A stretch of 59,661 nt of DNA from a virus (lineage: Duplodnaviria > Caudoviricetes). The number at the start of each line of letters is the position of its first letter. Position 1 is the stretch's first letter. This document shows positions 1 to 59,661 of this stretch, piece after piece. The DNA lies in the IMG/VR virus record IMGVR_UViG_3300015264_000004, positions 1 to 59,661 of that record; one strand, given 5' to 3'. A program made the position numbers and the translations under genes. The notes below the pieces were generated by a model that was given only the letters and a program-made list of their open reading frames with translations, searched no databases and had not been told where the DNA came from.

Positions 1-77
1 CGGCTTGACGCTAGATTTTTTGAGATAGCGCGGTGCGTGTTTAGTTCCGCGTTAATAAGTTTCGGAAACGTAGCCTC
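1..77. repeat. 77-bp terminal overlap identical to 59585-59661 (circular assembly)
   Basis: Exact match CGGCTTGACG...GTAGCCTC at both ends. It lies inside the thyX frame, and 77 is a common assembler k-mer. Confidence 0.95.
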
Positions 78-182
78 GACCGTGACAAGTCGCTGTCCGT
101 ATGGTGATATACTATCCCGGATAATCCTGGCGCTAATTCGCGTCGGCTCAAAGTCTTTACCGCGTTTTATTTCTTGGATCAT
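1..182 (-). CDS. thyX: N-terminal part of flavin-dependent thymidylate synthase (continues at 59584 to 58675)
   Basis: ATG at 182 gives MIQEIKRG...DSISPYGQRLVTVEATFPKLINAELNTHRAISKNLASSRAIP, in frame with ORF 58675..59556 across the join. THR-x-S-x-N-x-ASSRAIP is the phage ThyX motif. Confidence 0.9.
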   Translation of the reverse strand, partial: MIQEIKRGKDFEPTRISARIIRDSISPYGQRLVTVEATFPKLINAELNTHRAISKNLASS

Positions 183-1345: not shown

Positions 1346-1472
1346 CCTTTCCCGCCTTTTGCATTTTCTTCGCGCCGATCATCTTACCAAAAATGAACGG
1401 AGCATATTGACCTAGTGGAATGTTAAGAGTTTCACTGATATACCAAATGATCTTGCACATTAGTTTAATCAT
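1329..1472 (-). CDS. small hypothetical protein (47 aa, not in the ORF track)
   Basis: MIKLMCKIIWYISETLNIPLGQYAPFIFGKMIG... starts in an ATGA overlap with the upstream stop and fills the gap. Confidence 0.55.
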   Translation of the reverse strand: MIKLMCKIIWYISETLNIPLGQYAPFIFGKMIGAKKMQKAGKDETNA

Positions 1473-1735
1473 TTTGATCCTTTCTTTTGGCAAAGTGGGC
1501 AATATACCTTACTGTTGTGCCCGCGTTTTAATTCTTTTTCCTTGGCTTTGTTGCCGTCTTTCCAGACCCGGACAACATCAAAGTCTATGCGTTGCTGGAT
1601 TGCGGCCGCTAACATTCGGGAGCCATTACCGGCCATGTGTCGTTCATACCTGCGCGCCACGTTAGACGCATAGCCCAGGTAATGACTCGCATGGCCGGCT
1701 AGTGGCTGGTATAGGTGGATCAAGTAACAGGGCAT
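1469..1735 (-). CDS. GIY-YIG family endonuclease (small)
   Basis: CYLIH...HYLG...RRYERH..G.G...E..LK pattern, with RBS AAAGGA. Confidence 0.8.
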   Translation of the reverse strand: MPCYLIHLYQPLAGHASHYLGYASNVARRYERHMAGNGSRMLAAAIQQRIDFDVVRVWKDGNKAKEKELKRGHNSKVYCPLCQKKGSK

Positions 1736-2245: not shown

Positions 2246-2473
2246 TCAAACAAGAATCGTTGCGTCAGGATCACTAACAAAGGCCCACAGACATACACCG
2301 TTCTGGTACTGCGTATAATAGCGCCATTGCTCAGGTTTGCTACATTGCAGGCTTGCCGCAAGTTTCATGGCCGAAGCCTGAATAGCCATTGCGTATCCGT
2401 CGCCGGTCAGCGAAACGGCCTTGTCGGCCGTTCGTTCGTCGCGTGGTAATCCCAGGAATTCGCCTTGCGTCAT
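2246..2473 (-). CDS. hypothetical protein
   Basis: TAATG coupling to the upstream gene. Confidence 0.55.
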   Translation of the reverse strand: MTQGEFLGLPRDERTADKAVSLTGDGYAMAIQASAMKLAASLQCSKPEQWRYYTQYQNGVCLWAFVSDPDATILV

Positions 2474-2778
2474 TATGCTACCTGCCTTTCGCGTTGAAAC
2501 TCAGGATGTACACCAGCCGCAGACCTGATATGCTTGCAAGCCATGCGGTGATACTTGTAGTTTGCGAAGTCGGGGCACGTGCAAGAGCCGATACGTTGAC
2601 CACTCTTGGAAACTGTCAGAGTAACCAAATTTTCTGTAGGGCGCATGTGGCCGGTATTCTTGACAAGATATTGACCCTGGCCGACGGGTTTGACATACAA
2701 TCTGTCTTTGGGTTGACGAAAACGCATACGCGGTTCGCTTAACGGGACTAACTGCGGGTTGTTTCCTTGAATCTTCAT
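2473..2778 (-). CDS. SWIM zinc-finger protein
   Basis: SCTCPDF...ACKHI is the SWIM CxCxnCxH motif. Confidence 0.8.
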   Translation of the reverse strand: MKIQGNNPQLVPLSEPRMRFRQPKDRLYVKPVGQGQYLVKNTGHMRPTENLVTLTVSKSGQRIGSCTCPDFANYKYHRMACKHIRSAAGVHPEFQRERQVA

Positions 2779-2813
2779 AATTTCCTAATCCTTTCGTGCC
2801 TGACTTGATAGCC

Positions 2814-2856
2814 ACTATACAGACATTATCGGAGCCTGTCAAGAAAACTTTACAAG
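2814..2856 (-). promoter_or_regulatory. cassette repeat / strong sigma70 promoter (outlying copy)
   Basis: TTGACA-GGCTCCGATAATGTCTG-TATAGT, 17-bp spacer. Confidence 0.85.
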
Positions 2857-2863
2857 AAAAATC

Positions 2864-2898
2864 AAAAAAAAATAGCGGGCCGCGTTTAACCCGCTATT
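2864..2898 (-). terminator. intrinsic terminator
   Basis: AATAGCGGGTT-loop-GGCCCGCTATT running into a T9 tract on the minus strand. Confidence 0.85.
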
Positions 2899-2910
2899 CC
2901 GATATGTTAA

Positions 2911-3028
2911 TTTGATTGGGCCGCTGTCTCTGCGCTCTTATTTCGCGTCAGGGCCGCTACTCAGCTACGCTTTTCACGGCTTATCTGACAGCTAAACAGG
3001 CAGCGCAGAGACAGCGGCCCAAATCAAA
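2911..3028 (-). ncRNA. candidate structured RNA (long hairpin with central bubble and loop-E-like motif)
   Basis: 19-bp perfect inverted repeat 2918-2936/3002-3020, extendable to about 26 bp. Inner stems GUCAG/CUGAC and GCCGU/GCGGC, with a GAA/AGUA internal loop. Confidence 0.55.
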
Positions 3029-3070
3029 CCAGCCATTCCCACAGTCTTTTTAGCCAGCTAATTAGACTTG

Positions 3071-3484
3071 TTAGCCGGTCACTGTAGGGACAGGCGCATT
3101 TGGATCAACGGCCTTGACCGCGCTTGCGGTCTTGGCGTTTGCGTCTGACAGCGCCTGCGTGTCATCCTTGATTTGCTTCAGCGCAGCCAATAGGGCCGGG
3201 TCCGTATCTTCGGCGTCAATTGCGGCCTGAATTGCCGCAGCCTGCGCGCCTGCGTCATTGGTCAGGAAAGTATTCAGCGCGGTTGTCAGGCTGGCCGTGC
3301 TGTCAACCAAATCTTGAACGTTCTTACTTAATGCCATGATAATCCTTTCAACTTTCATGTCAATTGTCTCTAACTTGCGTAGTTCCCCAAACATCGGTTC
3401 CAGCATATCGAGACGGTTGTTAATACGTTTCAGGTAATCGAATATACCTAGAAACACTTCGGTTTGATTCAACTCAACAGTCAT
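3071..3484 (-). CDS. coiled-coil Ala-rich hypothetical protein (possible second in-frame start at 3337)
   Basis: Own promoter at 3523-3563. Internal GAAAGGA-N5-ATG. Confidence 0.7.
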   Translation of the reverse strand: MTVELNQTEVFLGIFDYLKRINNRLDMLEPMFGELRKLETIDMKVERIIMALSKNVQDLVDSTASLTTALNTFLTNDAGAQAAAIQAAIDAEDTDPALLAALKQIKDDTQALSDANAKTASAVKAVDPNAPVPTVTG

Positions 3485-3522
3485 ACTTTACACCTTTTCA
3501 GGATGTAGGTTTATCGAATCTA

Positions 3523-3563
3523 CCTATATCAGAGCCGGAAACCCTAGTCAAGTTAATTATACG
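3523..3563 (-). promoter_or_regulatory. sigma70 promoter with 18-bp box
   Basis: TTGACT-17 bp-TATAGG. Confidence 0.55.
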
Positions 3564-4375
3564 GCAAAAGGTCGATTACTTATGAACAATTCCTGACCCG
3601 GTACACAGGCCTTACCGCCTACATTATTCATTCCGTATCGCTTTGTCCATGGCCTGACATGCGCCCATGTGTATAAGTCTCTAATACCCTCTACATCATC
3701 GTATGTCATTAGCCAATGATGTTCGCAGGAGCGCAACAGACACGATAGGCGGCCATGGTCGAATTTTTGCAGATGTCCATTGATACCATAGATACCTGCG
3801 GCTGACATGTACGGTGGATCAAGATATATAAATACGTCGTCACCTGGGCACGTCAACAACGGTTCGTAATCATCGCAGGTAATGTGTATGTTAGGATATT
3901 TCATTGCGACAGCCAAACCATATAGCCTGCCAATACTCGACAGCGTAAACCGCTTGTCAAACGCTTGCTGACTATAGCCGCCACTCTCGATAGTCCCGGA
4001 AAAGGTAATCCGATTCAAAACGAAGAAGCGGGCAGCGCGTTCTATCTCATTCAGGGTATTTACGTCGCAATCCTTGTACATCCTAAATAACTCGCGGCCG
4101 TCTTTATACTCACGTTTGATTTCATATAATCGAGTAACTAACTGTTTCAGATGATCCATTGCAACCTGAAAATGCGTGGCAAGCTCAGGATTAATATCAT
4201 TGATCCAATACCGCCCTGCGGCTTCGCTCTGAAGCAAGGATAGGAACACTGACGCGCCGCCTAGAAACGGTTCGCGGTACTCCGTCATAGTTTCCGGGAT
4301 AAGAGGCAAGATGACCTTTAACGCATGCGCCTTACCACCGGGATAGCGTAACCAGCTTGGCATAGTCTTTACCAT
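3557..4375 (-). CDS. D12/Dam-family N6-adenine DNA methyltransferase
   Basis: LRYPGGK, EPFLGG (motif I), YLDPPY (motif IV). Specificity cannot be read from sequence. Confidence 0.9.
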   Translation of the reverse strand: MVKTMPSWLRYPGGKAHALKVILPLIPETMTEYREPFLGGASVFLSLLQSEAAGRYWINDINPELATHFQVAMDHLKQLVTRLYEIKREYKDGRELFRMYKDCDVNTLNEIERAARFFVLNRITFSGTIESGGYSQQAFDKRFTLSSIGRLYGLAVAMKYPNIHITCDDYEPLLTCPGDDVFIYLDPPYMSAAGIYGINGHLQKFDHGRLSCLLRSCEHHWLMTYDDVEGIRDLYTWAHVRPWTKRYGMNNVGGKACVPGQELFISNRPFAV

Positions 4376-6521: not shown

Positions 6522-8318
6522 TTACCAGCCCTCTTTTTCTTCGGTATCGGTTTCCGCGTTCGGATCATCTTCTTTAACGATATTTTTCGGTGTCCACTTG
6601 GCGGGCAATGACAGGACACTGACACACTTTGGATTACCGCGTTCGTCTCTGACGGTGTGAACAACTCTTTCCCCGCCGATACGATACAGGAATGTCATTA
6701 GCTCAGTCTTGGTTTTCTTGAATCCGAAGGCATGCTTGGCGTATTTCCAGAAACTCAGGGCGGAAATACATATTGCATTGTCGAGATATGCGGGCTGTGC
6801 GTGTGCCGCTGCCTGACGATGTTTCATAAGGCTTATCTCGACTGGCAAGAATTCATCAAGGTACTGTTGTAACATTTCCTTAATTTCGCCTAGCTCCGTC
6901 ATAGATTCGGCTACAGGCCTATCTTCCGCAAGATTCAATAGTTTCTGTGATGTCGGCCACCAAAGATCATCCTTCATACGTGGAACAACATGATTTATGC
7001 CGTTTGCAATTTGCCGCCTAAACGCGCTCTGTTCGATAAGGCTTAACACGTCACCCAGGTTGACATACTTGTCACCCGGAAAGTACATAATGAATTGCGG
7101 CGGTTGCGTCAAATGTTTTTCTATCTTTTCAATTCGGAAACCAAGGATTGTATAAAGTTGATCTATCAGGATATTATAATCGTCAGCCGGAGCGTGTGCC
7201 GCTGTGATCCGTTCGCGGGCCTGACGGTGCACGCTAGCAGCATCAAATATTGTCCGCTGATAATAGTCGATTCTATGCGCAGGATCACCGTACTTACGCC
7301 GGTGCGCAATCATCACATTGACTGTTTCTTGATCCGTCAGCCCGTTAACTATGCAGAGATTAGCCAGAGCCATATCATAGGAGCTACGGCTTTGGTCTGG
7401 CAGGTCTGACCGCTTGCGCTCCCATGTCTTTTTGAATTTTTTGGAATTGGCTGTAAGGGCTTCGAAAATCGCGGCCCCGATGTCCGCGTTATCGTCTACG
7501 GTAATATCTACCCGTTTCCAGGGCGCGTCAATATCAGGCTTTAGCTGCGTTACATTCGAAGCCTGTACACGCGCCTGCGGGCTGGTAGCCTTTTCTTTTG
7601 GTAGTTGCGCCCTGAGCGTATCAAGTAATCCCTCAAAGTCTGCGGTCGTATAGCGCTTATCATTGTCGAGATAGCTAATAGCCGCGAGTACTGGGGATTC
7701 TGCGATTTTATAATTCAGGGTGCCCGGTATTCGTAAGACCCGTGTTAGATCGTGCACGCTGTCAACATCCCATTTGTTTTTAGCGGCACGCCACTTAAAC
7801 ATGCGCTGCCATACTTCTATCAGCTTGGCAGCCTCTGCCCTTTCTTCGGCCTCGTTATCCCCGGCAAAAGTCCAAAAGTCTTTGAATAGCCAATAGGCAT
7901 GGATACCGTACCCGCTATGCACAATCATTGATACTGGTAATTCTATGGAATTGACTAACTCTACGGCTGCGTCAATGGTAGGCGGTAGGTTTCCCTTTTT
8001 ATGTACCCGTTTGTCCGGGTGTGCAACGTCAATATCTAAATGTATACCGCCGATGCCTGCCATAGCATCATGCTTGCCGCGTCCCGAGCGCGGTTTCGTG
8101 GCGACGGTAGCCACGCCGAAATACACATCGGTACCGGCTTCTTTTTGTCGAGTGGCGAACGTGGCAGCCTGGGTAATGTCTGCGTAAAAATGTCTTGTGC
8201 TGGCCTCTTCGGGGCCTGTTTTATTAAGCTGCCAAATGCAGATTAGATCATTTACAGGTTTGTTACCGAAAATAGCCGACAGGAATTCTAACGCGCTGGT
8301 GTTGTCGTTACCATTCAT
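6522..8318 (-). CDS. AEP-superfamily DNA primase (RepB'-like) with helical-bundle domain
   Basis: VYFG, LDID, HSGYGIHAYW, RVLRIPGTLNYK. C-terminal SRSSYDMALA...YYQRTI. Confidence 0.85.
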   Translation of the reverse strand: MNGNDNTSALEFLSAIFGNKPVNDLICIWQLNKTGPEEASTRHFYADITQAATFATRQKEAGTDVYFGVATVATKPRSGRGKHDAMAGIGGIHLDIDVAHPDKRVHKKGNLPPTIDAAVELVNSIELPVSMIVHSGYGIHAYWLFKDFWTFAGDNEAEERAEAAKLIEVWQRMFKWRAAKNKWDVDSVHDLTRVLRIPGTLNYKIAESPVLAAISYLDNDKRYTTADFEGLLDTLRAQLPKEKATSPQARVQASNVTQLKPDIDAPWKRVDITVDDNADIGAAIFEALTANSKKFKKTWERKRSDLPDQSRSSYDMALANLCIVNGLTDQETVNVMIAHRRKYGDPAHRIDYYQRTIFDAASVHRQARERITAAHAPADDYNILIDQLYTILGFRIEKIEKHLTQPPQFIMYFPGDKYVNLGDVLSLIEQSAFRRQIANGINHVVPRMKDDLWWPTSQKLLNLAEDRPVAESMTELGEIKEMLQQYLDEFLPVEISLMKHRQAAAHAQPAYLDNAICISALSFWKYAKHAFGFKKTKTELMTFLYRIGGERVVHTVRDERGNPKCVSVLSLPAKWTPKNIVKEDDPNAETDTEEKEGW

Positions 8319-9869: not shown

Positions 9870-11642
9870 TTACGTAAATTTTGGCAATGCGCGGGCCTTT
9901 GTCATGAGGCTACTAATCACGTCAAGACCCTTGCGCAGGGATTCGATTATATCAATGTTAATGGTTTTCGCAGCCGCGAGATAGATATTCAGTACGCTAT
10001 GCATTTGTCCGGGTCTGTCAAGGCGGCCTTGACTCTGAATGAAATTAATAAGGGAATGATCCGTATTATAATAGATAGCCACGTGTGCCACGTCCTGCAA
10101 ACCGTCAACGCCTGTCCCGCCTGCGGCAATCTGACAAGCTACCAGATTCGCCTTGCCGCTCTTAAACTTTTCCTGTTCGTCAATCTTGCCGCTAATTTCG
10201 CAATACTGGTAGCCCAATTCTTTAGCAATCCTCATAATAGCATCGCTATCAGGATCAAAGGCATAGTATATCAAAAGCGGCGCATGCGGTGGAATCCCGG
10301 CCGTCTCTGGTAGCTCCTGAATGATACTTTTTAGGAATTCAGCCCGGCTATCATCAATAAATTCTATGCGTTGTTTCTTTTTGATCCTGTCCGGGCCGGT
10401 TCCACAGACGGGGCAGCCGAAGAATAGCTTTTCCTTGTCGGAGTCCGTAAAGTTTGCTTTACAGTCTCGACAGCGGAAACCATCGTCAACACCGATGTAT
10501 CCGGCTGTGATTTGCTGACAGCGTAGTATCTTCGTTAGGATATTGTCAGCGCTAACCGTTACGTCATCCCTGAGCGCTGCGAAGGCGTCATTTTCCATAG
10601 CGTCATAGATGCGCTGCGCGGCCGGCGATAGATCGAAGAAGTATTTTTTGTGACGCATTGGCAGGAGTTTCAAAACAGATTTGTCAACTTCGAATATGTA
10701 AGGCGCTAACTTTGACATCATCAAATCAGGATGACGGTAGCCCAGGATTTGTTTGTTATTAAATCCGCCCATAATTAGGTACTCGTCGGAAAACTTCTTA
10801 AAGGACGTACCGAATACCCCCGGGTCAATAACTTTCATCTGTCCGAATATGTCAGCGCCTGGGCGGTTGCCCATAAACGTGGCCGTACCTGCGGTCACTT
10901 GCTGGCATACGTGTTCTGTAAAATCGGCTAGGTACTTTGATACAACGCTCCCGGAATCCTTAAACATGTGGGACTCGTCAAAGATAACCTGACCTATTGG
11001 CTGTTGCATAAGCCACGATGCGAGCGGATCACGCCATACCGATTGGTAGTTAGTCACCAATACGATTAGCTTACCCCCGCCGTGCATAGTCGCGGCCTTC
11101 GCCATTTGTAGGTTTCGTTCTGCATTGCCCGCGTTCAAGGCGACACACCAGACGGGTACCGTAGCAAATTCATCAAAGCCACGCGGAAAATTGACGATTG
11201 ATTTTTTCTTGGTAACGACCAATGTTAATTTAATTTGACGCTTGCAAATCAGGTCAACATAGATTTTGGTTTTGCCGGTCGCTGTCGGCATAAACAAAAC
11301 CGACGCCTGTTGAGGTAGGATAAAGCGCAAGCCTTCGCCTTGGTGATGCCACGGCGGGCAGTCAGCGCTACACCTGTGCCGCTTGATGTCCTGGGCTTGA
11401 TCCTGAGCGCGCATAAGAGCCAAGAGGCTTTGGAATCCTTTGTCACCCTGGGCCTTAATATTCTCTTGATGCACGAAAAAATAGAGGGTCCGGGCTGCGC
11501 CTGTAGTCTTTGCCATCGTCCATTTTTTTGGCCCTTTTTCCCATCTACAGGACGGTAATGTTTGCAGCTTGGCTTTAAGTGGGAACGTGTCACCACCTAG
11601 TATTAAACGCTTGGCACCTGTCGAGACTGTTAGGTTGTACAT
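9870..11642 (-). CDS. SNF2-like SF2 helicase with Zn-ribbon insert
   Basis: MPTATGKT, FDESH, TAT, QGRLDRPGQ, plus an inserted CRDC...CPVC. Confidence 0.88.
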   Translation of the reverse strand: MYNLTVSTGAKRLILGGDTFPLKAKLQTLPSCRWEKGPKKWTMAKTTGAARTLYFFVHQENIKAQGDKGFQSLLALMRAQDQAQDIKRHRCSADCPPWHHQGEGLRFILPQQASVLFMPTATGKTKIYVDLICKRQIKLTLVVTKKKSIVNFPRGFDEFATVPVWCVALNAGNAERNLQMAKAATMHGGGKLIVLVTNYQSVWRDPLASWLMQQPIGQVIFDESHMFKDSGSVVSKYLADFTEHVCQQVTAGTATFMGNRPGADIFGQMKVIDPGVFGTSFKKFSDEYLIMGGFNNKQILGYRHPDLMMSKLAPYIFEVDKSVLKLLPMRHKKYFFDLSPAAQRIYDAMENDAFAALRDDVTVSADNILTKILRCQQITAGYIGVDDGFRCRDCKANFTDSDKEKLFFGCPVCGTGPDRIKKKQRIEFIDDSRAEFLKSIIQELPETAGIPPHAPLLIYYAFDPDSDAIMRIAKELGYQYCEISGKIDEQEKFKSGKANLVACQIAAGGTGVDGLQDVAHVAIYYNTDHSLINFIQSQGRLDRPGQMHSVLNIYLAAAKTINIDIIESLRKGLDVISSLMTKARALPKFT

Positions 11643-15704: not shown

Positions 15705-16448
15705 TTAGGTGGTAGCTTTGCGTGTAGGGACACTCAGGTAGAGGTCGTTAGCGATAAGGCTCAGGCTTTCCCGGATGTCGAGGCCGTCAACGTCAAAGCC
15801 TGCGTGTATCCAGCCGTCAACCTGTCGGGCTGTCTCAGTCGAGAATAACTCGACACGTGGGATGTCGCCAAGCATCCGAACGATGCGGCCACGTGTTTCG
15901 TCCGGCTTGTGACTGTGATGCGAGACGGGAGCGTAGATTATCTGTTTGACATCCTTGGCTTCGCGCATCGGCGCGCCGCATTTAGCAAGGATCACAATTT
16001 CAGCGTTACCATTAGCCCAATAGCCCAGGCCTGAGAACGTGCCGCTAATCATTAATTGATTGGTTGTCGGTACGCCGGTCAGGATTTGACCCTTGGTATA
16101 GCTGTCCGATGTCAATAGAGGCTGATTACCAATCATTAATTCGGACATCTGGTAATCCGTCAACTCGACAAGCCTACCAGTCGAATTCAACTTGACCCAA
16201 ACAAAAGGCACGGTCACAAAGCGCATATCCCAGGCGTCAATCAATTCCAGCGCTTCGGGCAGCTTTGGCAGCGTGGCCCAAATAAACATGGCGCAATCGC
16301 GGGATGTAATCTGTTCTACCAGTGGCCCTAAATCCTTTAGGTCTGAAAGCGACATTCGGCCATAGCCCGTGCCGCCACGGGCCGGGTCCCCGGATTGGTC
16401 GTTGTCATACTGCCAGGGCGGGTCAATGTATATAACCGGAAAGCGCAT
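15705..16448 (-). CDS. MT-A70 family adenine methyltransferase
   Basis: IYIDPPW, FVWVK, HSHKP, VELF. Confidence 0.9.
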   Translation of the reverse strand: MRFPVIYIDPPWQYDNDQSGDPARGGTGYGRMSLSDLKDLGPLVEQITSRDCAMFIWATLPKLPEALELIDAWDMRFVTVPFVWVKLNSTGRLVELTDYQMSELMIGNQPLLTSDSYTKGQILTGVPTTNQLMISGTFSGLGYWANGNAEIVILAKCGAPMREAKDVKQIIYAPVSHHSHKPDETRGRIVRMLGDIPRVELFSTETARQVDGWIHAGFDVDGLDIRESLSLIANDLYLSVPTRKATT

Positions 16449-18423: not shown

Positions 18424-21400
18424 TTAGTGAATTAGATGCATCGTAAAAACTGGTTCCAAACCGGCGAACACGCCTTTGATAGCAAGACTACCGCCGATGT
18501 GATGAAATACATAAGCCTTTACAAAGTCGCCTGCGGTCAGGTTGTATTCTGTATAGGTATGCATGTAAGTTAGGTCAATTGTCAGCGCTACCGTTCGCCA
18601 TTCTACAATCGTTGTTGTTCCGTTCAATTGCAGACCAATAATCCTAATAGTCGCGCTGGCTGCATTGTCAAACGCCGCCCTGACGGAAATAGCGTATTTC
18701 CCGGTTACGGGAGCGATAAACTTATCAGTGTTCGTTGACGTATCGTGATAAGTATTGGTGTCGTAATCTTCACTGGTAAACAACAGGAAAGTTGTTGTAT
18801 TGTCAGGTATAGATTGATCCGTATTACGGCTTGCCCTGATACCGCTAAAAGCTGGTGACGTTGCCAGCAAATCCCAAAAACTAGCATTGGGCGGTACGTG
18901 ATTCGTATGCGCAGCGGTACATATATAAGAATTCGTACCATCTGTAATCGCATCGTTGACGGCGTATGCGGTAGCGCTTGACCATGTGCCGCGCCATACC
19001 AGACCTGCGGGGCCGGTTGCCCCGGTTGCTCCCGTTGCACCAGCGGCCCCGGCTGCCCCTGTCGCGCCGGTTGCTCCCGTTGCACCAGCGGCCCCGGCTG
19101 CCCCGGTTGCTCCCGTAGCTCCTGTTGCACCGGCCGGCCCTGTCGCGCTGACATCTACCACGCCGCCGCCGATATTTGACACGCTGCCATTAGGAAAGCG
19201 TAATGTAGTCGCTGCCAATACCGGGCTGCCGTCAGGCTCAGTTACAGTTAGCCCGGTAAGTTGCCATGTGATCGTGCCCGTTGTCGGATCATAAACAGGC
19301 GTTGTATGCGTAGCATCCGGCGCGCCCGTTACTGTGACTCCCGCTATCGAGGTTGCGTTACCTGCGGCGGGCTGCGTATATGTACCGCTTGGTGAATAGG
19401 CCGGATTAGACGGCGTTGCGCCTGTACGCGAGACACCACGTACCTGGGCATGATAGCTTGTCAAGCCGTCTCGCGTGGCATAGAGAACAAACGTTAGCGC
19501 ATTGGCAAGACTCCCATTATCGGTAGTTTCGTTTGCATTGGTGTACACATAAGATGTTGTGATTAGACCTGTCACCGTTCGGAGCAATGTACCGGCTTGA
19601 TTGTATATCTTCAGTATGTAATTCGCGCCGCCTTCAGGACCTGCAATACTTGTATTAGATTGCGGGATAACTGTACCCTGTCGAGTCCTATCACGATGCG
19701 CCCAGGCTATTGTTATATCACCCGTCGCAGGTATTGTTGTCGTTGTTGCGCTGGTATTGATTGTTACGTTACCCGGCGCGTATGGCCTGAGCGCTCTTTG
19801 ATTAATCGTTCTTGAAAGTAGGGTAGCTGATCCTGCATCAAGTGTTCCCTGTAATGATCTTGATAACAACTTGGCGTATGCCGTTGTACCCGCCGCGAAA
19901 GGCAGCAAGCCCCGCGCATCACCATAAGAGAAAAACCAGACTCGCGCCCCTGCGGTAAACGGCTGCGGCGTAGTATCCATAAGACCGCGCCATACATTGC
20001 TAAATTGGTAATTCCCACTAACGACGGTAACCGTTTCAAAGCCCAGGATTTCAAATACACCGCTTTGAACGATAAGCATTAGATTTTCGCCATTGCCTAT
20101 CTGTGTTGACGTGGCATTGATTAATTTATCCAAATCCGTGCTACCGCTACCAGTAACGACAAGAGTACCGCTACTGTCGATAGCGCTTGTGTTCCTTGCG
20201 TATGATCCATTCAAGACGCCCGTAGGCGTAAAGGCGTTGTTACTTTGATCCGTGGTAAACTCTGAATTGTCCGGGCTATCAGAAAGATCATACGAATAAT
20301 TGCCGGCCGGTCTAATTGCCATTGTCCATAGATGCGCCGTGCCGTCACCGCTCAACATGAAAGGTAGCTCCGACAATTGAGTTGTTGCGCTGTCTGCGGC
20401 TGGTGTAACTATGGCGGCCTGACCGCTAGTCGGCGGCGCGGCTATGACATTCGCGGTTGAATTAAATACATCTTCGATTCCCTCAATTTCGATAATCGGT
20501 TGATCCGTGTCGCCGTATTTGACGGACGTAGCCCGCATCACCATGCCTACGATGCCTCTACCTTGATCGTCAACAATGTCCGGCCAATTCCATTTATATA
20601 CACCGCCCGGCGTCATTGTATAGCCAGTTCGATTAACCTGTATCGTGTGTTTCGCCAGGGGTGTTGACAAAGAGCGTAAGTCACGCTGCGCAATCTGGGC
20701 CGCTGTCGTACCGTTGCTAATTCCGACATGCAGTACGTTACTTGGCACGATACCGCCCTGCGTCTCGACATTCGCAAGATCGTAAGCGTAGGCAGTCTTG
20801 CCGCTAAAAGAATCCGTTCTATCTACGTAAGGCAGGGTTATCCAATTGGTCGTATCATTCCATGCGCTACGCGAATAGCCAGCCATTGACAGGATGTTAT
20901 CTTGATCGAACACGGGCAGCGTACTGACATCGTAATCAGCCCGCGCCGCCTTCAAGACACAAAGCCCTGTCCGCAGGTCAGAATAAAGAATACTATCAGT
21001 CAGGGTTAGAATATTGTTAATAACTTCGGAGCATTGCTTTGACGTGTCCCAAAGGCCAGAGAATCCAAAGCCATCATTAAAATACGTATGTGCCGCGCTC
21101 AGGAAACTGGCATCATCAATTAATGTAGAATCCATACCAGCGCCGTACAGCGCGTTGCGCATGATGTCATAGATAACCTCTGCGGGATTTGCATCGCCGC
21201 TATTGATATTATGATAGGCTCCCGCGCTTGGAATGTTTGACGGTAAGGTTTCTGTTACGAATGACCATGCCGCCACGCTTGTCGAGTTGCCCAGGTAGCC
21301 GCTGCCCTTGGCTCTATGCTGTCCTTTGAATATGACATAGCTCCTGTCACGATGCGCAGAATAGTTACCGTATTCACTGACAAGATAGGCGTCTTTACTT

Positions 21401-21900
21401 GCGGTAGGTAATCCCACATGTACACCAAGATAACCATAGATACCGCCGTTACCGCCGCTGGCTTGATCGTCACCGCCGAATAAACTTTTCTTATCAATTA
21501 ATATTTCGCTGTCAGTCGTTACGCTCCCGGTCCATGCAACCTTGTCACCGATATTAATCTGCGTCAGCCTGTCGATACGATAACCAAGAGCCATTTCGAT
21601 ACCACAATAGTATCGAAAGCCAATTGTCTGTTTGCCTGTCATTGTCAGTAGTAAGCTCAACTTTTCAATCAAGCCTAGCTTTCTGACAATCGGCTCCGAT
21701 GAAAAATCGGTAACCGACGTGACATTAGGGGCCTTCATTAACACGGTACCATACGGCCGGGGTATGGCCCTTGACGCGTCTGCGGTAGGAAAATTAAAAT
21801 CGGAAAGTGACGCGGCCTTTGACGGCGCTACCTTGGGCCTGAATAATTGACCCAATACCGTGCTAATCGAGAACAATAATAAGACTAACCAGAACGGCAT
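18424..21900 (-). CDS. central tail tip/hub protein with collagen repeats, CBM5/12-like and C1q-like C-terminal domains
   Basis: N-terminal FPTA...IP..YGT and NPAE..YD tail motifs, (GAT/GAA)n repeat, WRGTWS..AY..ND module, F.APV.GKY...L.AGD.V C1q-like pattern. Confidence 0.85.
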   Translation of the reverse strand: MPFWLVLLLFSISTVLGQLFRPKVAPSKAASLSDFNFPTADASRAIPRPYGTVLMKAPNVTSVTDFSSEPIVRKLGLIEKLSLLLTMTGKQTIGFRYYCGIEMALGYRIDRLTQINIGDKVAWTGSVTTDSEILIDKKSLFGGDDQASGGNGGIYGYLGVHVGLPTASKDAYLVSEYGNYSAHRDRSYVIFKGQHRAKGSGYLGNSTSVAAWSFVTETLPSNIPSAGAYHNINSGDANPAEVIYDIMRNALYGAGMDSTLIDDASFLSAAHTYFNDGFGFSGLWDTSKQCSEVINNILTLTDSILYSDLRTGLCVLKAARADYDVSTLPVFDQDNILSMAGYSRSAWNDTTNWITLPYVDRTDSFSGKTAYAYDLANVETQGGIVPSNVLHVGISNGTTAAQIAQRDLRSLSTPLAKHTIQVNRTGYTMTPGGVYKWNWPDIVDDQGRGIVGMVMRATSVKYGDTDQPIIEIEGIEDVFNSTANVIAAPPTSGQAAIVTPAADSATTQLSELPFMLSGDGTAHLWTMAIRPAGNYSYDLSDSPDNSEFTTDQSNNAFTPTGVLNGSYARNTSAIDSSGTLVVTGSGSTDLDKLINATSTQIGNGENLMLIVQSGVFEILGFETVTVVSGNYQFSNVWRGLMDTTPQPFTAGARVWFFSYGDARGLLPFAAGTTAYAKLLSRSLQGTLDAGSATLLSRTINQRALRPYAPGNVTINTSATTTTIPATGDITIAWAHRDRTRQGTVIPQSNTSIAGPEGGANYILKIYNQAGTLLRTVTGLITTSYVYTNANETTDNGSLANALTFVLYATRDGLTSYHAQVRGVSRTGATPSNPAYSPSGTYTQPAAGNATSIAGVTVTGAPDATHTTPVYDPTTGTITWQLTGLTVTEPDGSPVLAATTLRFPNGSVSNIGGGVVDVSATGPAGATGATGATGAAGAAGATGATGATGAAGAAGATGATGATGPAGLVWRGTWSSATAYAVNDAITDGTNSYICTAAHTNHVPPNASFWDLLATSPAFSGIRASRNTDQSIPDNTTTFLLFTSEDYDTNTYHDTSTNTDKFIAPVTGKYAISVRAAFDNAASATIRIIGLQLNGTTTIVEWRTVALTIDLTYMHTYTEYNLTAGDFVKAYVFHHIGGSLAIKGVFAGLEPVFTMHLIH
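19007..19140 (-). repeat. collagen-like Gly-X-Y coding repeat
   Basis: About 15 GXY triplets. A 38-bp identical duplicate lies at 19022-19059 and 19067-19104. Confidence 0.9.
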
Positions 21901-34906: not shown

Positions 34907-35392
34907 TTACGCTTTCAATCCAGCCAGGGAGTCGAGTAATTCATCCTTACTCATGCTACTGTAACCGACGATTTTGTTTTCCTGCGCTGCGATAATCAAG
35001 TCAGCTTTAGTAAATTCTGACATTTCAGCGCGTGACATCCTTTGAGGGTCAACTTTTCCGGTTTTATCATCCCGGCCGACAGGATTTGAGGCAAAATCCT
35101 CTAATTCCGGTTCATCCTCACGAAGTGTATCTTGTACGCCGTGGTTTCCCTTATCGTACTCTGTTACTTCGGCCGGCGTGGCTTCACGTATCGCGCCAAG
35201 CCTTGCCAGCCTGTCAAGGTTAATATTTTCCGGGAGCCTGTCGAGGGTGATTATATTCAAATGTTCAACGCCGCCCGGTATGTGATCCTGCATTAATTCA
35301 TCTTCGGTAGGAGTAAACCCGCCGATGTGATGCATGACTCTATACCGCGTTGTAGAGTTTCGGTCAAGTTTTACTGTCTGTTTAACTGCCAT
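34907..35392 (-). CDS. Rho-N/HeH domain protein
   Basis: TKADL...A....I.GYSSMSKDEL. Confidence 0.75.
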   Translation of the reverse strand: MAVKQTVKLDRNSTTRYRVMHHIGGFTPTEDELMQDHIPGGVEHLNIITLDRLPENINLDRLARLGAIREATPAEVTEYDKGNHGVQDTLREDEPELEDFASNPVGRDDKTGKVDPQRMSRAEMSEFTKADLIIAAQENKIVGYSSMSKDELLDSLAGLKA

Positions 35393-44861: not shown

Positions 44862-45570
44862 TGGCCATAGCCTCTAATTCTGCGTCAGTCATTTTGGTAA
44901 CATCTACGTTACTACGAAACTTTTTATCGTCGAGGCCCGTTGCCAGCCTTGCAAATTTGGATTGGATTAATAGAAACCGTGTCATGTCTGCCAAGTCCCA
45001 TTCCGCAGGCTCCTGCCTGATAATGTTCTGTACAACAATACCGTCGCCGGTCAACCTTTCCTCTGTACGTTCGAACGTCTCGACAAAGAGGGGCCATGCT
45101 AACATTTCCTCGATTTGCCTGCGCAACTTAACAGAGACATCCCATTCCCATTCTTTTTGGGTGTCGGCACGTTTGGCCCACTTTGCAGCCTGCAAATCCT
45201 GGGCTTTCCTGCGGGCCTCGTCTTGCCTGCGTACCCAATAGGTGTCATAGGCACGTGACCGCTCTTGCCATTCGTATTTAGTGGCCAGGTCACGAATCTG
45301 TAGGTAGGATAGGCCTGTCTTTTTGGCAACTCTGGTATAGTTCCTACTGTTAGCAAGATAGCAGTACAAACGGAATAATCCGTAATGATAGGTAGACTCT
45401 TCGGGCCGTAGATGCCATATCTGTATTTCAACGTCGGCATCACATTCAAAGGGGCCGACAGGCAGGTCATCCTCTAATAACTGCAAAGCCTCGACAGGCT
45501 GCCCCTCTAACATGGTACTGTCAACGTCAGGCTCTATCCCTGTTAACCTTTCGGCCCTATGTAATGCCAT
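44851..45570 (-). CDS. putative terminase small subunit
   Basis: ES..Y..F..Y....R....VA...W.ER.RAYD HTH pattern, tail DVTKMTDAELEA. Confidence 0.7.
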   Translation of the reverse strand: MALHRAERLTGIEPDVDSTMLEGQPVEALQLLEDDLPVGPFECDADVEIQIWHLRPEESTYHYGLFRLYCYLANSRNYTRVAKKTGLSYLQIRDLATKYEWQERSRAYDTYWVRRQDEARRKAQDLQAAKWAKRADTQKEWEWDVSVKLRRQIEEMLAWPLFVETFERTEERLTGDGIVVQNIIRQEPAEWDLADMTRFLLIQSKFARLATGLDDKKFRSNVDVTKMTDAELEAMANET

Positions 45571-50339: not shown

Positions 50340-50951
50340 TTAATAATCATCGCGTCTATCGGCTAATAGGTGACTAAAGCGCTTGCGTGCCTCTGGTGTA
50401 TCAAACGAATAGACCCGTAAGCGCTGCGTGGTAATGGCCCTGACCTGTCGGGAATCCCGCCACAAACTAGCCTGATAATCGTCGGATAGTTTACGCCACG
50501 AAGGCCGGCCCCACTTATCAGAGGGAATAGTTTGCGGTACTCGCATGTTTATCCTGGCATGTAAAGCTTTCCATGCGCCATGTTCGAATTGGCTCCTGTC
50601 TAAATATACGCCATAGGTAGGATTAATTTGCCTATAGCCTGACGCAAACGCTTTGCGGGCCGTCTTAATGTAGACAACATACTTTCCTTTGTCGGGCAGG
50701 CTTTGAATTGACTGCGGCGCGCAACGCGCTAATGACCTGACCCTGAGTTGACGGTTATTGCCAAGTCGGTAGATCATAGGTTGCACGGTGTAGGCTTTCG
50801 CGTTATTCTCTGCGCAATCATCGGCCGTCAGAATAAACTTTGCATCGTTGCGGCCCCGTACAAGTTGCGAAACAGAATAGATCATACCGTCATCACCAAT
50901 AACTTTGTCGGTAATGCTCAGGTCAGCAATGCGGATTAATGCAATATTCAT
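50340..50951 (-). CDS. early-region hypothetical protein
   Basis: RBS AAGGGAGC. Stop abuts a repeat. Confidence 0.7.
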   Translation of the reverse strand: MNIALIRIADLSITDKVIGDDGMIYSVSQLVRGRNDAKFILTADDCAENNAKAYTVQPMIYRLGNNRQLRVRSLARCAPQSIQSLPDKGKYVVYIKTARKAFASGYRQINPTYGVYLDRSQFEHGAWKALHARINMRVPQTIPSDKWGRPSWRKLSDDYQASLWRDSRQVRAITTQRLRVYSFDTPEARKRFSHLLADRRDDY

Positions 50952-58285: not shown

Positions 58286-58678
58286 TTAATCCTGCGGTAT
58301 ATTGCTATGATCCAAACCACACGTAGGGCACACGCTACCCTGTAAATAATCTCGCGGTATGGTATTGTGATGTAGGTACGGTTGAATATTTTTCGCTTTC
58401 GACTGCCGGAAAGCCTCTATACCATCTTCAGTCACATCGCCGGTGTCTATCATAAGACGCATAGCAAAAGACACGTCGCCTAACTCTTTTTCTAATTCCC
58501 CGCGATTATCCCAGGGTGTCGAGGCTACAGGATTGCGTGTACTGTAGCCGTGGCGCATAATCTTACCTATCGCCTGTTGCGCTTCCCCTAATTCTTCACT
58601 CAGGAGCGCTAGGCGTTCGTGTTCGGCTGGTGTTAACGCGCAAAACATCGACATTACTTGCTTGTTATCATATTTCAT
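58286..58678 (-). CDS. MazG-like nucleotide pyrophosphohydrolase
   Basis: EELGE..Q...K..RHG...LEKELGDV, ATGA overlap with the thyX stop. Confidence 0.82.
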   Translation of the reverse strand: MKYDNKQVMSMFCALTPAEHERLALLSEELGEAQQAIGKIMRHGYSTRNPVASTPWDNRGELEKELGDVSFAMRLMIDTGDVTEDGIEAFRQSKAKNIQPYLHHNTIPRDYLQGSVCPTCGLDHSNIPQD

Positions 58679-59661
58679 ATTCCGCGCTCCTGACAGCCGC
58701 AATAAAACAAATGGCTCCCGCAAACCGGACATGGTTCGGAATTGTTACCAAAATTCGTTACGCAGCCTTTCGCAGCCTCTTTTGCCTTGTCGCATCCTTC
58801 AGGTTGCACAAACTGCCCGACATGCTTTGTTACCATCGCATCCCGGATGTGTGCTAACTCAGGCAGGTTTGGTAAGAAGTGACGCCGGTTTTCGTCCTTA
58901 AATTCCTTCCGGTACTGGTGGTACCCGCGCAGATTACCTTGTTTGCGGCAATCTTCCCTCGTATCTATAGGACAGTCGCAGGGTGTTGCCACATGTTCGA
59001 ATGGTGACCAATGGCCAGAGCCTAGCAACTTATCGAACAGGTCAACATCCTTGCGCATGTCCGGGGCTGTTTGATCGTGATTCAAGTATGACACCCTGGC
59101 GCAGCGCGCCGTAGATACCTGACGCAAATCCAGCAAGTTTACGGGGTCCACATTCCACATGCCTATTTCGGCATTGGTTACGTATGGTAAATGGTATTCA
59201 CCGGGTTTTAATTCCTGCGGCGTGCTGGTGTAATAAACCATCTGGATAGCATCGGCTAACGCTTTCATTTCGGGTTGTGCCGCAGGGTGACACCGTTGCC
59301 AGAAAAAGTTATCCCACTCCGTAGCCGTAAGAATCGCAGTTACCCACAACCACGGCTCAAGATAGCGATTGGCATGTTGCTTATGCAATCCCTCGACTTC
59401 GGTTAACTGCCTGACACAATGTACAGCGCTATTCTTTAGCGCTAGGATGCGAGCTAGGGCTGTCCGGGCTTTGACGGAATCTATATGTTGCGGCGCTTGC
59501 ATACCGGCCACGTTAGCGCCGTACCATATTGGCGTATACGGATCATTGCTAACCATGTCAAGTATGCGCTTTGACGGTATGGCGCGGCTTGACGCTAGAT
59601 TTTTTGAGATAGCGCGGTGCGTGTTTAGTTCCGCGTTAATAAGTTTCGGAAACGTAGCCTC
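58675..59661 (-). CDS. thyX: flavin-dependent thymidylate synthase (main part; starts at 182 across the join)
   Basis: HKQHANRYLEPW, NFF.QR, AQPE, SxARCARVSY, HWSPFEHVA, GNLRG..QYR. Confidence 0.92.
   Translation of the reverse strand, partial: EATFPKLINAELNTHRAISKNLASSRAIPSKRILDMVSNDPYTPIWYGANVAGMQAPQHIDSVKARTALARILALKNSAVHCVRQLTEVEGLHKQHANRYLEPWLWVTAILTATEWDNFFWQRCHPAAQPEMKALADAIQMVYYTSTPQELKPGEYHLPYVTNAEIGMWNVDPVNLLDLRQVSTARCARVSYLNHDQTAPDMRKDVDLFDKLLGSGHWSPFEHVATPCDCPIDTREDCRKQGNLRGYHQYRKEFKDENRRHFLPNLPELAHIRDAMVTKHVGQFVQPEGCDKAKEAAKGCVTNFGNNSEPCPVCGSHLFYCGCQERGI

What the first reader, a model, noticed from the sequence alone, without database searches (positions are those of the whole stretch)
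2911..3028. Candidate 118-nt structured RNA with a loop-E/bulged-G motif
Seen (minus strand): a ~26-bp closing stem (19 bp perfect), a 12/10-nt open bubble, a GUCAG/CUGAC stem, then GCCGU-GAA-A-AGC-GUA-GCU-G-AGUA-GCGGC. GAA opposite AGUA between helices is the established sarcin-ricin/loop-E signature, and it forms only on the transcribed strand. The element lies between gene 3071..3484 and a separate intrinsic terminator, so it is not the terminator. Inference: a functional phage RNA. Stem-bubble-stem resembles 6S RNA (an RNA polymerase decoy), and the loop-E tip could be a protein-binding site or a decoy for host ribotoxins.
Basis: partly seen in the sequence, partly recalled or inferred. 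Interest (0 to 1): 0.75.

Follow-up and report, generated by a model that had tools for sequence, protein, structure and literature searches.

The report
Orphan giant hairpin in phage 3′UTR
An uncultured soil phage carries one exceptionally stable 118-base hairpin between a small gene and its terminator; it is probably an ordinary mRNA processing or stabilising signal, and its ribosome-like loop motif could not be tested because no relatives' DNA could be reached.

Summary
Window 2911-3028 is an imperfect palindrome that folds at -70.8 kcal/mol (z -9.3). It is the most stable 120-nt window of this complete 59.7-kb phage record and occurs once. It lies on the transcribed strand, 42 nt after the stop of a 137-aa gene and 10 nt before a separate strong intrinsic terminator. 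Its apical 4x5 loop (GAAA/GAGUA) fits every position of the published sarcin-ricin/loop-E consensus.

The helices fold equally well on both strands. The "open bubble" is mostly paired in the ensemble. No Rfam family, including 6S, matches. The tip is a GUA triloop with the motif inverted relative to the ribosomal loop, so it is not a ribotoxin decoy.

No copy was found in viral, prokaryote-genome, plasmid or phage collections. The only relative whose DNA I could reach (50% protein identity) has no hairpin at this spot. Closer relatives (78-99%) exist only as protein records, so covariation could not be tested. No RNA data exist.

Best reading (about 0.42): a cis-acting 3′-UTR hairpin that acts as an RNase III-type processing or stability element. 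Interest is low to moderate.

The parts
3524..3551 (-). Promoter-like site upstream of the 137-aa gene (TTGACT, 17 nt, TATAGG). It is weaker than the one at 2842 because it lacks the final T of the -10 hexamer.
   Evidence: A perfect match to TTGAC-N18-TATAG, and one of 3 perfect matches in the genome. That motif gives 15 matches at up to 1 mismatch against 3.2 expected. The stricter sigma-70 scan did not list it.
3071..3484 (-). Gene for a 137-aa helical protein of unknown function. The hairpin lies in its 3' UTR.
   Evidence: ORF. Homologues at 53-99% identity and of similar length, so the gene is intact. Only a sub-threshold XhlA match, E 0.0038, and no PHROG. The AF2 model is two long helices at pLDDT 61.7. 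The atlas finds viral hypothetical proteins.
2911..3028 (-). The 118-nt hairpin. G.U and U-A pairs extend it to about 2903-3036.
3002..3027 (-). 5' arm of the lower helix; it pairs with 2912-2936.
   Evidence: 25-26 bp with one bulged U; 21 bp are perfect in the alternative register.
2912..2936 (-). 3' arm of the lower helix.
2937..3001 (-). Apical domain: the mismatch-rich 'bubble', P2 (GUCAG/CUGAC), the AUAA/C loop, P3 (GCCGU/GCGGC), the S/R-type loop, then a 3-bp helix with a GUA triloop.
   Evidence: Folded alone, the 64-nt apical domain gives -19.8 kcal/mol.
2958..2975 (-). Sarcin-ricin/loop-E-type 4x5 internal loop: GAAA at 2975-2972 opposite GAGUA at 2962-2958, enclosing AGC-GUA-GCU.
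   Evidence: Sequence, consensus and pattern scan.
2859..2900 (-). Separate intrinsic terminator: a 13-pair stem with a 6-nt loop, followed by a long T run.
   Evidence: It has the longest T run (9 counted by the script) among the 10 terminator-like hits of my genome scan.
2814..2842 (-). Strong promoter-like site of the next unit (TTGACA, 17 nt, TATAGT; 11 of 12).
2473..2778 (-). Next gene, 101 aa, with no family match.

Best explanation
The element is a cis-acting RNA hairpin in the 3' untranslated region of the mRNA of the 137-aa gene. It is transcribed with that gene and lies just before the unit's intrinsic terminator. Its 25-26-bp, nearly perfect lower helix is longer than the two helical turns (22 bp) of an idealised bacterial RNase III substrate. 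The most likely action is therefore on the fate of the message. Either double-strand cleavage in the stem removes the terminator hairpin and exposes the message to 3' exonucleases, which is retroregulation as at lambda sib. Or the hairpin, intact or nicked on one strand, acts as a 3' barrier that stabilises the message, as at the T7 early sites. What is shown: the structure, its statistical extremity, its single copy, and its place on the transcribed strand between a stop codon and a terminator. What is inferred: that it is transcribed, that RNase III or another dsRNA-binding factor acts on it, and the direction of the effect. The sarcin-ricin-type loop at the apex may be a docking site for a protein or a chance match. 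I cannot tell which.
For: The hairpin is extreme (z -9.3) and is the top window of the genome. All substantial ORFs are on the minus strand, so the region is transcribed in that sense if it is transcribed at all. It sits 42 nt after the stop codon and 10 nt before the clearest terminator in the genome, and the next promoter-like site follows. The strict scan found no promoter-like site between the stop codon and the hairpin, which favours co-transcription with the gene. The lower helix has 21 perfect bp and 25-26 bp in all. The RNase III review gives 22 bp (two A-helical turns) for the idealised E. coli substrate, says single-strand cleavage can leave 3' hairpins that act as stability determinants, and describes five processing signals in the T7 early precursor (PMC3867540, passages read). 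There is a slight lean to the minus strand over 2903-3036: -75.6 against -70.4 kcal/mol, with 4 G.U pairs against 1 C.A mismatch. No DNA-level signal was found: GC skew is monotonic and GATC sites do not cluster. No integrase, recombinase or ParB family appeared among the 40 of about 80 ORFs scanned.
Against: There is no expression data at all; the one run listed as holding the stretch is on record as DNA. No covariation is available. The only relative with reachable DNA (50% protein identity) goes straight from stop codon to terminator with no long hairpin and has no copy or analogue anywhere in its 69 kb. The element is therefore not an old, conserved part of this gene. A terminator hairpin already protects the 3' end, so a second hairpin is not obviously needed. 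The helices fold equally well on both strands as RNA and as DNA (-39.7 and -40.9 kcal/mol). The 4-to-1 G.U bias is not significant. The host, and so its RNase III rules, are unknown. About 40 ORFs were not scanned against family libraries.
Confidence: 0.42

Rival explanations
1. A discrete structured non-coding RNA. It would be either the apical ~65 nt released by cleavage of the lower stem, or the hairpin plus terminator as a 3'-UTR-derived small RNA. Its sarcin-ricin/loop-E loop would be the docking site for a phage or host protein.
For: The 4x5 loop GAAA/GAGUA fills all positions of the S/R consensus: bulged G, U.A, A.G, A.A, and a G-A lower pair that the authors studied (sequence). It sits at the apex of the one outlier hairpin and forms only on the transcribed strand. 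The layout of hairpin, A/U-rich linker, terminator and U tail is that of many 3'-UTR-derived sRNAs (recalled).
Against: With relaxed criteria, S/R-like loops arise about 0.7 times per shuffled genome, and the real genome has 2, the other one antisense inside an ORF. The motif rests on a 3-bp helix with a triloop and is closed by a G.U pair. Conservation is untestable. Two earlier follow-ups found that such S/R looks were not kept by relatives (e1-6047073, e1-5679758). No RNA-binding or RNA-processing protein appeared among the 40 ORFs scanned. There is no antisense target longer than 12 nt in the phage, and 78 of 200 shuffles reach at least 12. No own promoter was found.
Confidence: 0.2
2. A DNA-level palindrome: a binding or cleavage site for a phage protein, a cruciform or hairpin used in replication or recombination, or an origin-associated element beside the replication genes.
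For: Both strands fold equally well as DNA (-39.7 and -40.9 kcal/mol, z -9.3 and -10) and as RNA. The element lies about 0.5-5 kb from the Dam-type methylase, helicase-like and primase genes.
Against: There is no GC-skew inflection, and there is no GATC site at all between 2269 and 3103. No iterons or neighbouring repeats were found. The centre of the palindrome is imperfect over 65 nt, which does not suit a telomere-resolvase or symmetric recombinase core. No integrase, recombinase or ParB appeared among the 40 ORFs scanned. There is a slight energy and G.U lean to the RNA strand.
Confidence: 0.15
3. A functionless scar: a recent inverted duplication or the remnant of a small palindromic mobile element (MITE/REP-like) lodged in a tolerant intergenic gap.
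For: The element is absent from the only reachable relative at the homologous spot. The stem is nearly perfect, which fits a young age. No function has been shown.
Against: It is single-copy in the genome. There were 0 true matches in viral contigs: four patterns, whose only 2 hits were chance matches in ORFs. There were 0 in one genome for each of 185,579 prokaryote species for the two-arm pattern, 0 in plasmids and 0 in GenBank phages. There is no target-site duplication; the flanks instead extend the pairing. The exact-pattern scans would miss diverged copies.
Confidence: 0.12
4. A 6S-like RNA polymerase decoy, or a sarcin-ricin-loop decoy for ribotoxins.
For: Only the superficial stem-loop-stem outline and the AGUA/GAA motif.
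Against: There is no 6S family hit even at E<=10. The bubble is mostly paired. At 118 nt the element is well short of the roughly 180 nt of 6S RNA (recalled figure). No own promoter was found. There is no GAGA tetraloop, and the S/R motif is inverted relative to the ribosomal loop.
Confidence: 0.04

Closest known systems
RNase III processing hairpins of phage mRNAs: the five sites in the T7 early precursor (PMC3867540, passages) and lambda sib downstream of int (Plunkett & Echols 1989, seen only in the reference list of PMC5371410; mechanism recalled)
   Same: A long irregular hairpin in a non-coding stretch of a phage transcript, 3' of a gene. The helix is at least two turns long and interrupted by internal loops. 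The expected effect is on mRNA stability.
   Different: No cleavage has been shown. The lower helix is longer and more perfect than I recall for the T7 sites. The hairpin lies immediately before an intrinsic terminator rather than between cistrons. The host is unknown. There is no sequence similarity.
Sarcin-ricin / eukaryal loop-E (bulged-G) motif (PMC8450098)
   Same: A 5x4 internal loop with a G bulge and nucleotides that fit the U.A trans-WC/Hoogsteen pair, the A.G sheared pair, the A.A trans-Hoogsteen pair and a G-A lower sheared pair, flanked by U-A and G.U.
   Different: The match is at sequence level only. It is inverted relative to the 23S rRNA loop, capped by a 3-bp helix and a GUA triloop rather than a GAGA tetraloop, and its conservation is unknown.
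6S RNA
   Same: A rod-like hairpin with interruptions in the middle.
   Different: No Rfam match, no large open bubble, about two thirds of the length, and no own promoter seen.
3'-UTR-derived small RNAs of bacteria (recalled class)
   Same: A structured module followed by an A/U-rich linker and the mRNA's own terminator.
   Different: There is no exposed seed and no target complementarity beyond chance. Processing has not been shown.

Membership tests
Sarcin-ricin / loop-E (bulged-G) motif | A 5x4 internal loop between two Watson-Crick or wobble flanking pairs | tested here: met
   GAAA (4 nt) opposite GAGUA (5 nt), between U.G and A-U, in the MFE and centroid folds. Definition from PMC8450098.
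Sarcin-ricin / loop-E (bulged-G) motif | Nucleotide identities: A3, bulged G4, U5, A6 on the long strand; G9, A10, A/C11 on the short strand; an allowed lower tSH pair | tested here: met
   The long strand is G-A-G-U-A and the short strand G-A-A-A. The lower pair G2-A12 is a variant studied in PMC8450098.
Sarcin-ricin / loop-E (bulged-G) motif | More than chance would give | tested here: inconclusive
   The relaxed pattern gives 2 hits in the real genome against a mean of 0.725 in 40 shuffled genomes, and 0 hits in 98 kb of other loci. Its position at the apex of the outlier hairpin is suggestive, but it was noticed after the fact.
Sarcin-ricin / loop-E (bulged-G) motif | S-turn 3D geometry, and conservation in homologues | not testable with these tools
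   There is no RNA 3D tool, and no homologous DNA with the element.
Ribosomal sarcin-ricin loop mimic (ribotoxin decoy) | A GAGA tetraloop closed next to the A.G pair of the bulged-G motif (feature recalled) | tested here: not met
   The tip is a GUA triloop on AGC/GCU. The A.G pair faces the base of the hairpin, not the tip.
6S RNA | Match to the Rfam 6S covariance models | tested here: not met
   No gathering-score hit in the window. No 6S hit at E<=10 in 2500-3500.
6S RNA | A large open central bubble that mimics an open promoter | tested here: not met
   The bubble positions are mostly paired in the ensemble.
6S RNA | RNA polymerase binding and pRNA templating | not testable with these tools
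   This needs biochemistry.
RNase III processing site | A double helix of about two turns (22 bp) or more | tested here: met
   21 perfect bp, 25-26 bp with one bulge. Criterion from PMC3867540.
RNase III processing site | Lies in a transcribed non-coding stretch of an mRNA | tested here: inconclusive
   The position and strand fit, but there is no RNA evidence.
RNase III processing site | Cleaved by RNase III; free of antideterminant base pairs | not tested
   The host and its enzyme are unknown. This needs an assay.
MITE / REP-type palindromic repeat | Many copies in the genome or in related genomes | tested here: not met
   One copy in the record. 0 true matches elsewhere. Exact-pattern scans can miss diverged copies.
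MITE / REP-type palindromic repeat | Target-site duplication at the ends | tested here: not met
   The flanks GGCTGG and TTAACA are not direct repeats. They extend the pairing instead.
Intrinsic terminator | A hairpin directly followed by a U tract | tested here: not met
   The hairpin is followed by AAUCAAAUUAACAUAUCGG. The true terminator is a separate hairpin 10 nt further on.

The most novel reading that the evidence does not exclude
The hairpin is the precursor of a new kind of phage non-coding RNA. The near-perfect lower stem would be cut away by a dsRNA nuclease, releasing a ~65-nt apical RNA. Its sarcin-ricin/loop-E platform would recruit or sequester a host protein that normally reads that motif on ribosomal RNA, such as a ribosomal protein, a translation GTPase or an RNA-targeting defence enzyme.
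Probability: 0.1. Interest if true: 0.7.

Novelty: new member of a known kind. Interest (0 to 1): 0.3.

Why it matters
If the hairpin is a processing or stability signal, it is one more example of a long-known way for phages to tune single messages, here in a poorly charted soil phage. Of the 40 ORFs scanned, 14 matched any family, and 4 of those only below the curated cut-off. If instead the apical loop-E module proves to be conserved and bound by a protein, it would be an RNA-level phage-host interaction built on a ribosomal RNA motif. That would be worth following up. The question can be settled cheaply once the contigs of the 78-99% relatives can be read.

Tried and rejected
- **Rfam:** nothing at gathering score over the whole window. 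At E<=10 over 2500-3500 there were only miRNA-precursor noise hits on both strands and other sub-threshold hits. No tRNA or tmRNA.
- **Homologous DNA, routes that failed:**
  - GenBank phages by blastn of 2400-3600: no match.
  - Plasmids: no match.
  - Viral contigs with the 137-aa protein and the 585-aa protein: no relative.
  - Exact element patterns in viral contigs: only 2 hits, both chance matches inside ORFs with no inverted repeat.
  - A specific back-translated pattern from the invariant 12-residue block found only that same viral record and nothing in genome contigs.
  - The two-arm pattern in genome contigs: 0.
- **Sequencing runs:** no RNA holder was listed. Of the three rows, only one holds the stretch, and it is the probable source sample; the other two are tiny runs of that same sample. 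Laying them at 80% likeness gave the source contig only, with no variants.
- **Back-door test:** I searched the protein database for the 45-codon + strand frame that spans the hairpin, hoping that gene callers had translated it in relatives. No candidate.
- **Related record G001:** the weak match at 44938-44968 lies in an ORF with no hairpin. Its best-folding windows are unrelated.
- **Covariance model:** I made a two-row self-alignment (A2) for one but built no model, because there was nothing to search beyond G001, which blastn and the fold scan already covered.
- **Upstream protein:** the AF2 model was too poor (pLDDT 61.7) for a fold search, so none was run. The atlas gave only viral hypothetical proteins and generic helical look-alikes.
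- **Trans-target search within the phage:** nothing beyond chance.
- **Origin signals:** none.
- **My first 'reader structure' energy** (-6.5) came from an indexing slip in my script and is not used.
- **Earlier notes of this scan:** none for this genome or sequence.

Full report
**Setting.** The window is a complete viral record of 59,661 bp. It has a 77-bp exact terminal repeat. A ThyX-like gene runs across the record's ends. I read this as a circular or permuted assembly. GC content is 48.5%. All substantial ORFs lie on the minus strand, so the minus strand is the sense strand throughout. The one run that holds the stretch is a soil metagenome and is probably the source sample. I scanned 40 of about 80 ORFs against Pfam and/or PHROGs. 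Only 14 matched any family, 4 of them below the curated cut-off. The matches:
- A D12-class adenine methylase (3557-4375).
- A primase/polymerase-like protein (6522-8318).
- A helicase (9870-11642).
- An MT-A70 methylase.
- ThyX.
- Several DUFs.
- Weak GIY-YIG and Hint matches.

None is an RNase III, reverse transcriptase, Ro, RNA ligase, integrase, recombinase or ParB. About 40 ORFs, mostly between 18 and 41 kb, were not scanned.

**The observation.** The MFE is -70.8 kcal/mol. Dinucleotide shuffles give -35.6 +/- 3.8, so z is -9.28, and 0 of 200 shuffles fold as well. From base to tip the fold is:
- A 25-26-bp lower helix with one bulged U; 21 bp are perfect in the register of the repeat finder.
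- A 12/10-nt mismatch-rich segment.
- GUCAG/CUGAC.
- An AUAA/C loop.
- GCCGU/GCGGC.
- A 4x5 loop, GAAA/GAGUA.
- AGC/GCU closed by a GUA triloop.

In a fold scan of the whole genome (5956 windows of 120 nt, both strands) this is the most stable window: -66.3 against a mean of -28.7, sd 7.05. The runners-up at 19.0, 29.5, 36.6 and 12.4 kb lie inside ORFs and are explained by composition (z -1.6 to -3.2). An independent contig assembly of the probable source run is identical over 2300-3700.

Two details need correcting. First, the 'open bubble' is mostly paired in the thermodynamic ensemble: C-G, UGUUU/AAAUA and GC/GC, separated by single mismatches and bulges. Second, the helices themselves are not strand-specific. 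The + strand folds at -68.6 (z -11.0). Each strand has 46 pairs including 2 G.U. As DNA, the two strands give -39.7 and -40.9 kcal/mol. Over the extended stem (2903-3036) the minus strand is favoured, -75.6 against -70.4, with 4 G.U pairs against 1 C.A mismatch. That leans towards an RNA on the sense strand, but the counts are far too small to be significant.

**Context.**
- The element starts 42 nt after the stop codon of the 137-aa gene (3484-3071).
- It ends 10 nt before a separate intrinsic terminator, with stem 2900-2869 and then a long T run. That terminator has the longest T run among the 10 terminator-like hits of my scan.
- A strong promoter-like site (TTGACA, 17 nt, TATAGT; 2842-2814) and the next gene follow.
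- The motif TTGAC-N18-TATAG is enriched: 15 matches at up to 1 mismatch against 3.2 expected, 12 of them on the minus strand. Its three perfect copies include 3551-3524, upstream of the 137-aa gene, and 2842-2815.
- The 3551 site lacks the final T of the -10 hexamer, and the stricter scan did not list it. That scan instead lists a site inside the gene, at 3363-3336.
- So the start of the transcript is uncertain. The region would be transcribed in the minus sense in any case, and no promoter-like site lies between the stop codon and the hairpin.
- The element is therefore best described as a 3'-UTR hairpin that is distinct from the terminator.

**The loop-E claim.** PMC8450098 (passages read) defines the sarcin-ricin motif as a 5x4 loop. 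The long strand has nt 2 (lower tSH), nt 3 (tHH), the bulged G4, U5 (tWH) and A6 (upper tHS). The short strand has G9, A10, A/C11 and nt 12. Here the long strand is G-A-G-U-A (2962-2958) and the short strand G-A-A-A (2975-2972). Every position fits.

How much that means is less clear. A relaxed scan for such loops in small hairpins found 2 in the real genome: this one, and one antisense inside an ORF at 18750-18790. It found 0 in 98 kb of other loci, and a mean of 0.725 per shuffled genome. The motif alone is therefore not significant genome-wide. By my own estimate (inference, not a tool result), a given 4x5 loop matches with a probability of about 1e-4, before allowing for the many motifs a reader could have noticed. 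The motif rests on only a 3-bp helix and a triloop. It is inverted relative to the ribosomal loop, with the A.G pair facing the base, and the tip is not a GAGA tetraloop. A ribotoxin-decoy reading fails on the features I recall as defining. Earlier notes of this scan (unchecked leads) include two phage hairpins whose sarcin-ricin look was not kept by relatives, and one conserved loop-E module. This cautions about base rates and nothing more.

**Known families.** No Rfam family reaches its gathering score in the window. At E<=10 the region gives only miRNA-precursor hits on both strands, which is what any long hairpin gives, and no 6S model. With no open bubble and a length of 118 nt, the 6S analogy is not supported.

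**Relatives.**
- The 137-aa protein has homologues at 99, 88, 85, 78 and 53% identity (alignment). All are of similar length, so the gene is intact.
- I could obtain DNA only for a 50% relative: L005, and L006/L007 in the 69-kb record G001.
- There the gene is followed at once by its own terminator, with no long hairpin.
- The record holds no copy of the element; a weak match lies in an ORF.
- It holds no comparably stable hairpin: its best is -54.3, in an unrelated repeat-bearing gap.
- Exact or gapped patterns of the element found nothing real in viral contigs, in one genome for each of 185,579 prokaryote species, in plasmids or in GenBank phages.

Covariation, the decisive test, could not be made. 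The element is single-copy and so far an orphan. It is not a repeat family, but it is also not shown to be conserved.

**Mechanism.** I commit to a cis-acting 3'-UTR RNA element that acts on the fate of the message (confidence about 0.42). The lower helix exceeds the 22 bp of the idealised RNase III substrate. Single-strand cleavage at irregular sites is known to leave stabilising 3' hairpins, and phage T7 uses five such signals (PMC3867540, passages). Double-strand cleavage downstream of a gene that triggers 3' decay is the lambda sib/int case (recalled; the paper was not held). The structure and its position are shown. Transcription, cleavage and the direction of the effect are inferred.

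The rivals, with my confidence in each:
- A discrete RNA with a loop-E docking site: 0.2.
- A DNA-level palindrome: 0.15. There is no skew inflection, GATC cluster or recombinase.
- A functionless young inverted duplication or mobile-element scar: 0.12.
- The 6S or ribotoxin-decoy ideas: 0.04.

A trans-acting antisense role within the phage finds no support. The longest complementarity is 12 nt, which 78 of 200 shuffles reach.

**Verdict.** This is a real and striking hairpin, most likely an ordinary kind of phage mRNA signal. Its apical loop-E match is correct at sequence level but unproven. Interest is low to moderate until the relatives' contigs or RNA data can be read.

Noticed in passing
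window 1-77 and 59585-59661; 3-182(-) and 58675-59661(-): The 77-bp exact terminal repeat, together with a ThyX-like gene (Thy1 domain, E 2.9e-9) that runs across the record's ends, suggests the 'direct terminal repeat' is the overlap of a circular or permuted assembly rather than a physical genome end.
   Followed up: partly
window, minus strand, e.g. 2815-2842, 3524-3551, 35340-35367: The promoter-like motif TTGAC-N18-TATAG is enriched: 15 matches at up to 1 mismatch against 3.2 expected, 12 of them on the minus strand. It is a candidate promoter class of this phage.
   Followed up: partly
window about 18990-19130 (-), inside ORF 18424-21900: A repetitive G-rich coding stretch (repeated GGAGCAACCGGGGCAGCCGGGGCC-type units), probably a Gly-X-Y collagen-like repeat in a 1158-aa protein. 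It explains the second most stable fold window.
   Followed up: no
window 18750-18790 (+): The second match to the relaxed sarcin-ricin-in-hairpin pattern, antisense inside a long ORF. Probably chance.
   Followed up: no
window 3336-3363 (-): A strong sigma-70-like site (TTGACA, 16 nt, TATCAT; 11 of 12) inside the 137-aa gene. If active, it would give a short transcript made of the gene's 3' part, the hairpin and the terminator.
   Followed up: no
window 3557-4375 (-) and 15705-16448 (-): Two DNA methyltransferases in one phage: D12-class Dam-like (E 9.5e-32) and MT-A70 (E 5.7e-15). GATC is somewhat under-represented, 173 against about 230 expected.
   Followed up: no
window 50340-50951 (-) and 1469-1735 (-): Weak, sub-threshold matches to a Hint/homing-endonuclease-associated domain (E 3.7e-4) and to GIY-YIG (E 3e-4). 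These may be traces of mobile endonucleases.
   Followed up: no
L010 4071-4210 (record G001): An intergenic gap in the related phage holds short hairpins built on a 20-nt direct repeat (GGGCCAGAACGTACCTACTT, twice), z -4 to -5 on both strands. It may be an operator or terminator cluster.
   Followed up: no
L006 4368-4427 (record G001): A 17-nt-arm inverted repeat (88% complementary, 26 nt between the arms) lies just after the terminator of the homologous gene and overlaps a TTGACT. It may be an operator at the next promoter.
   Followed up: no
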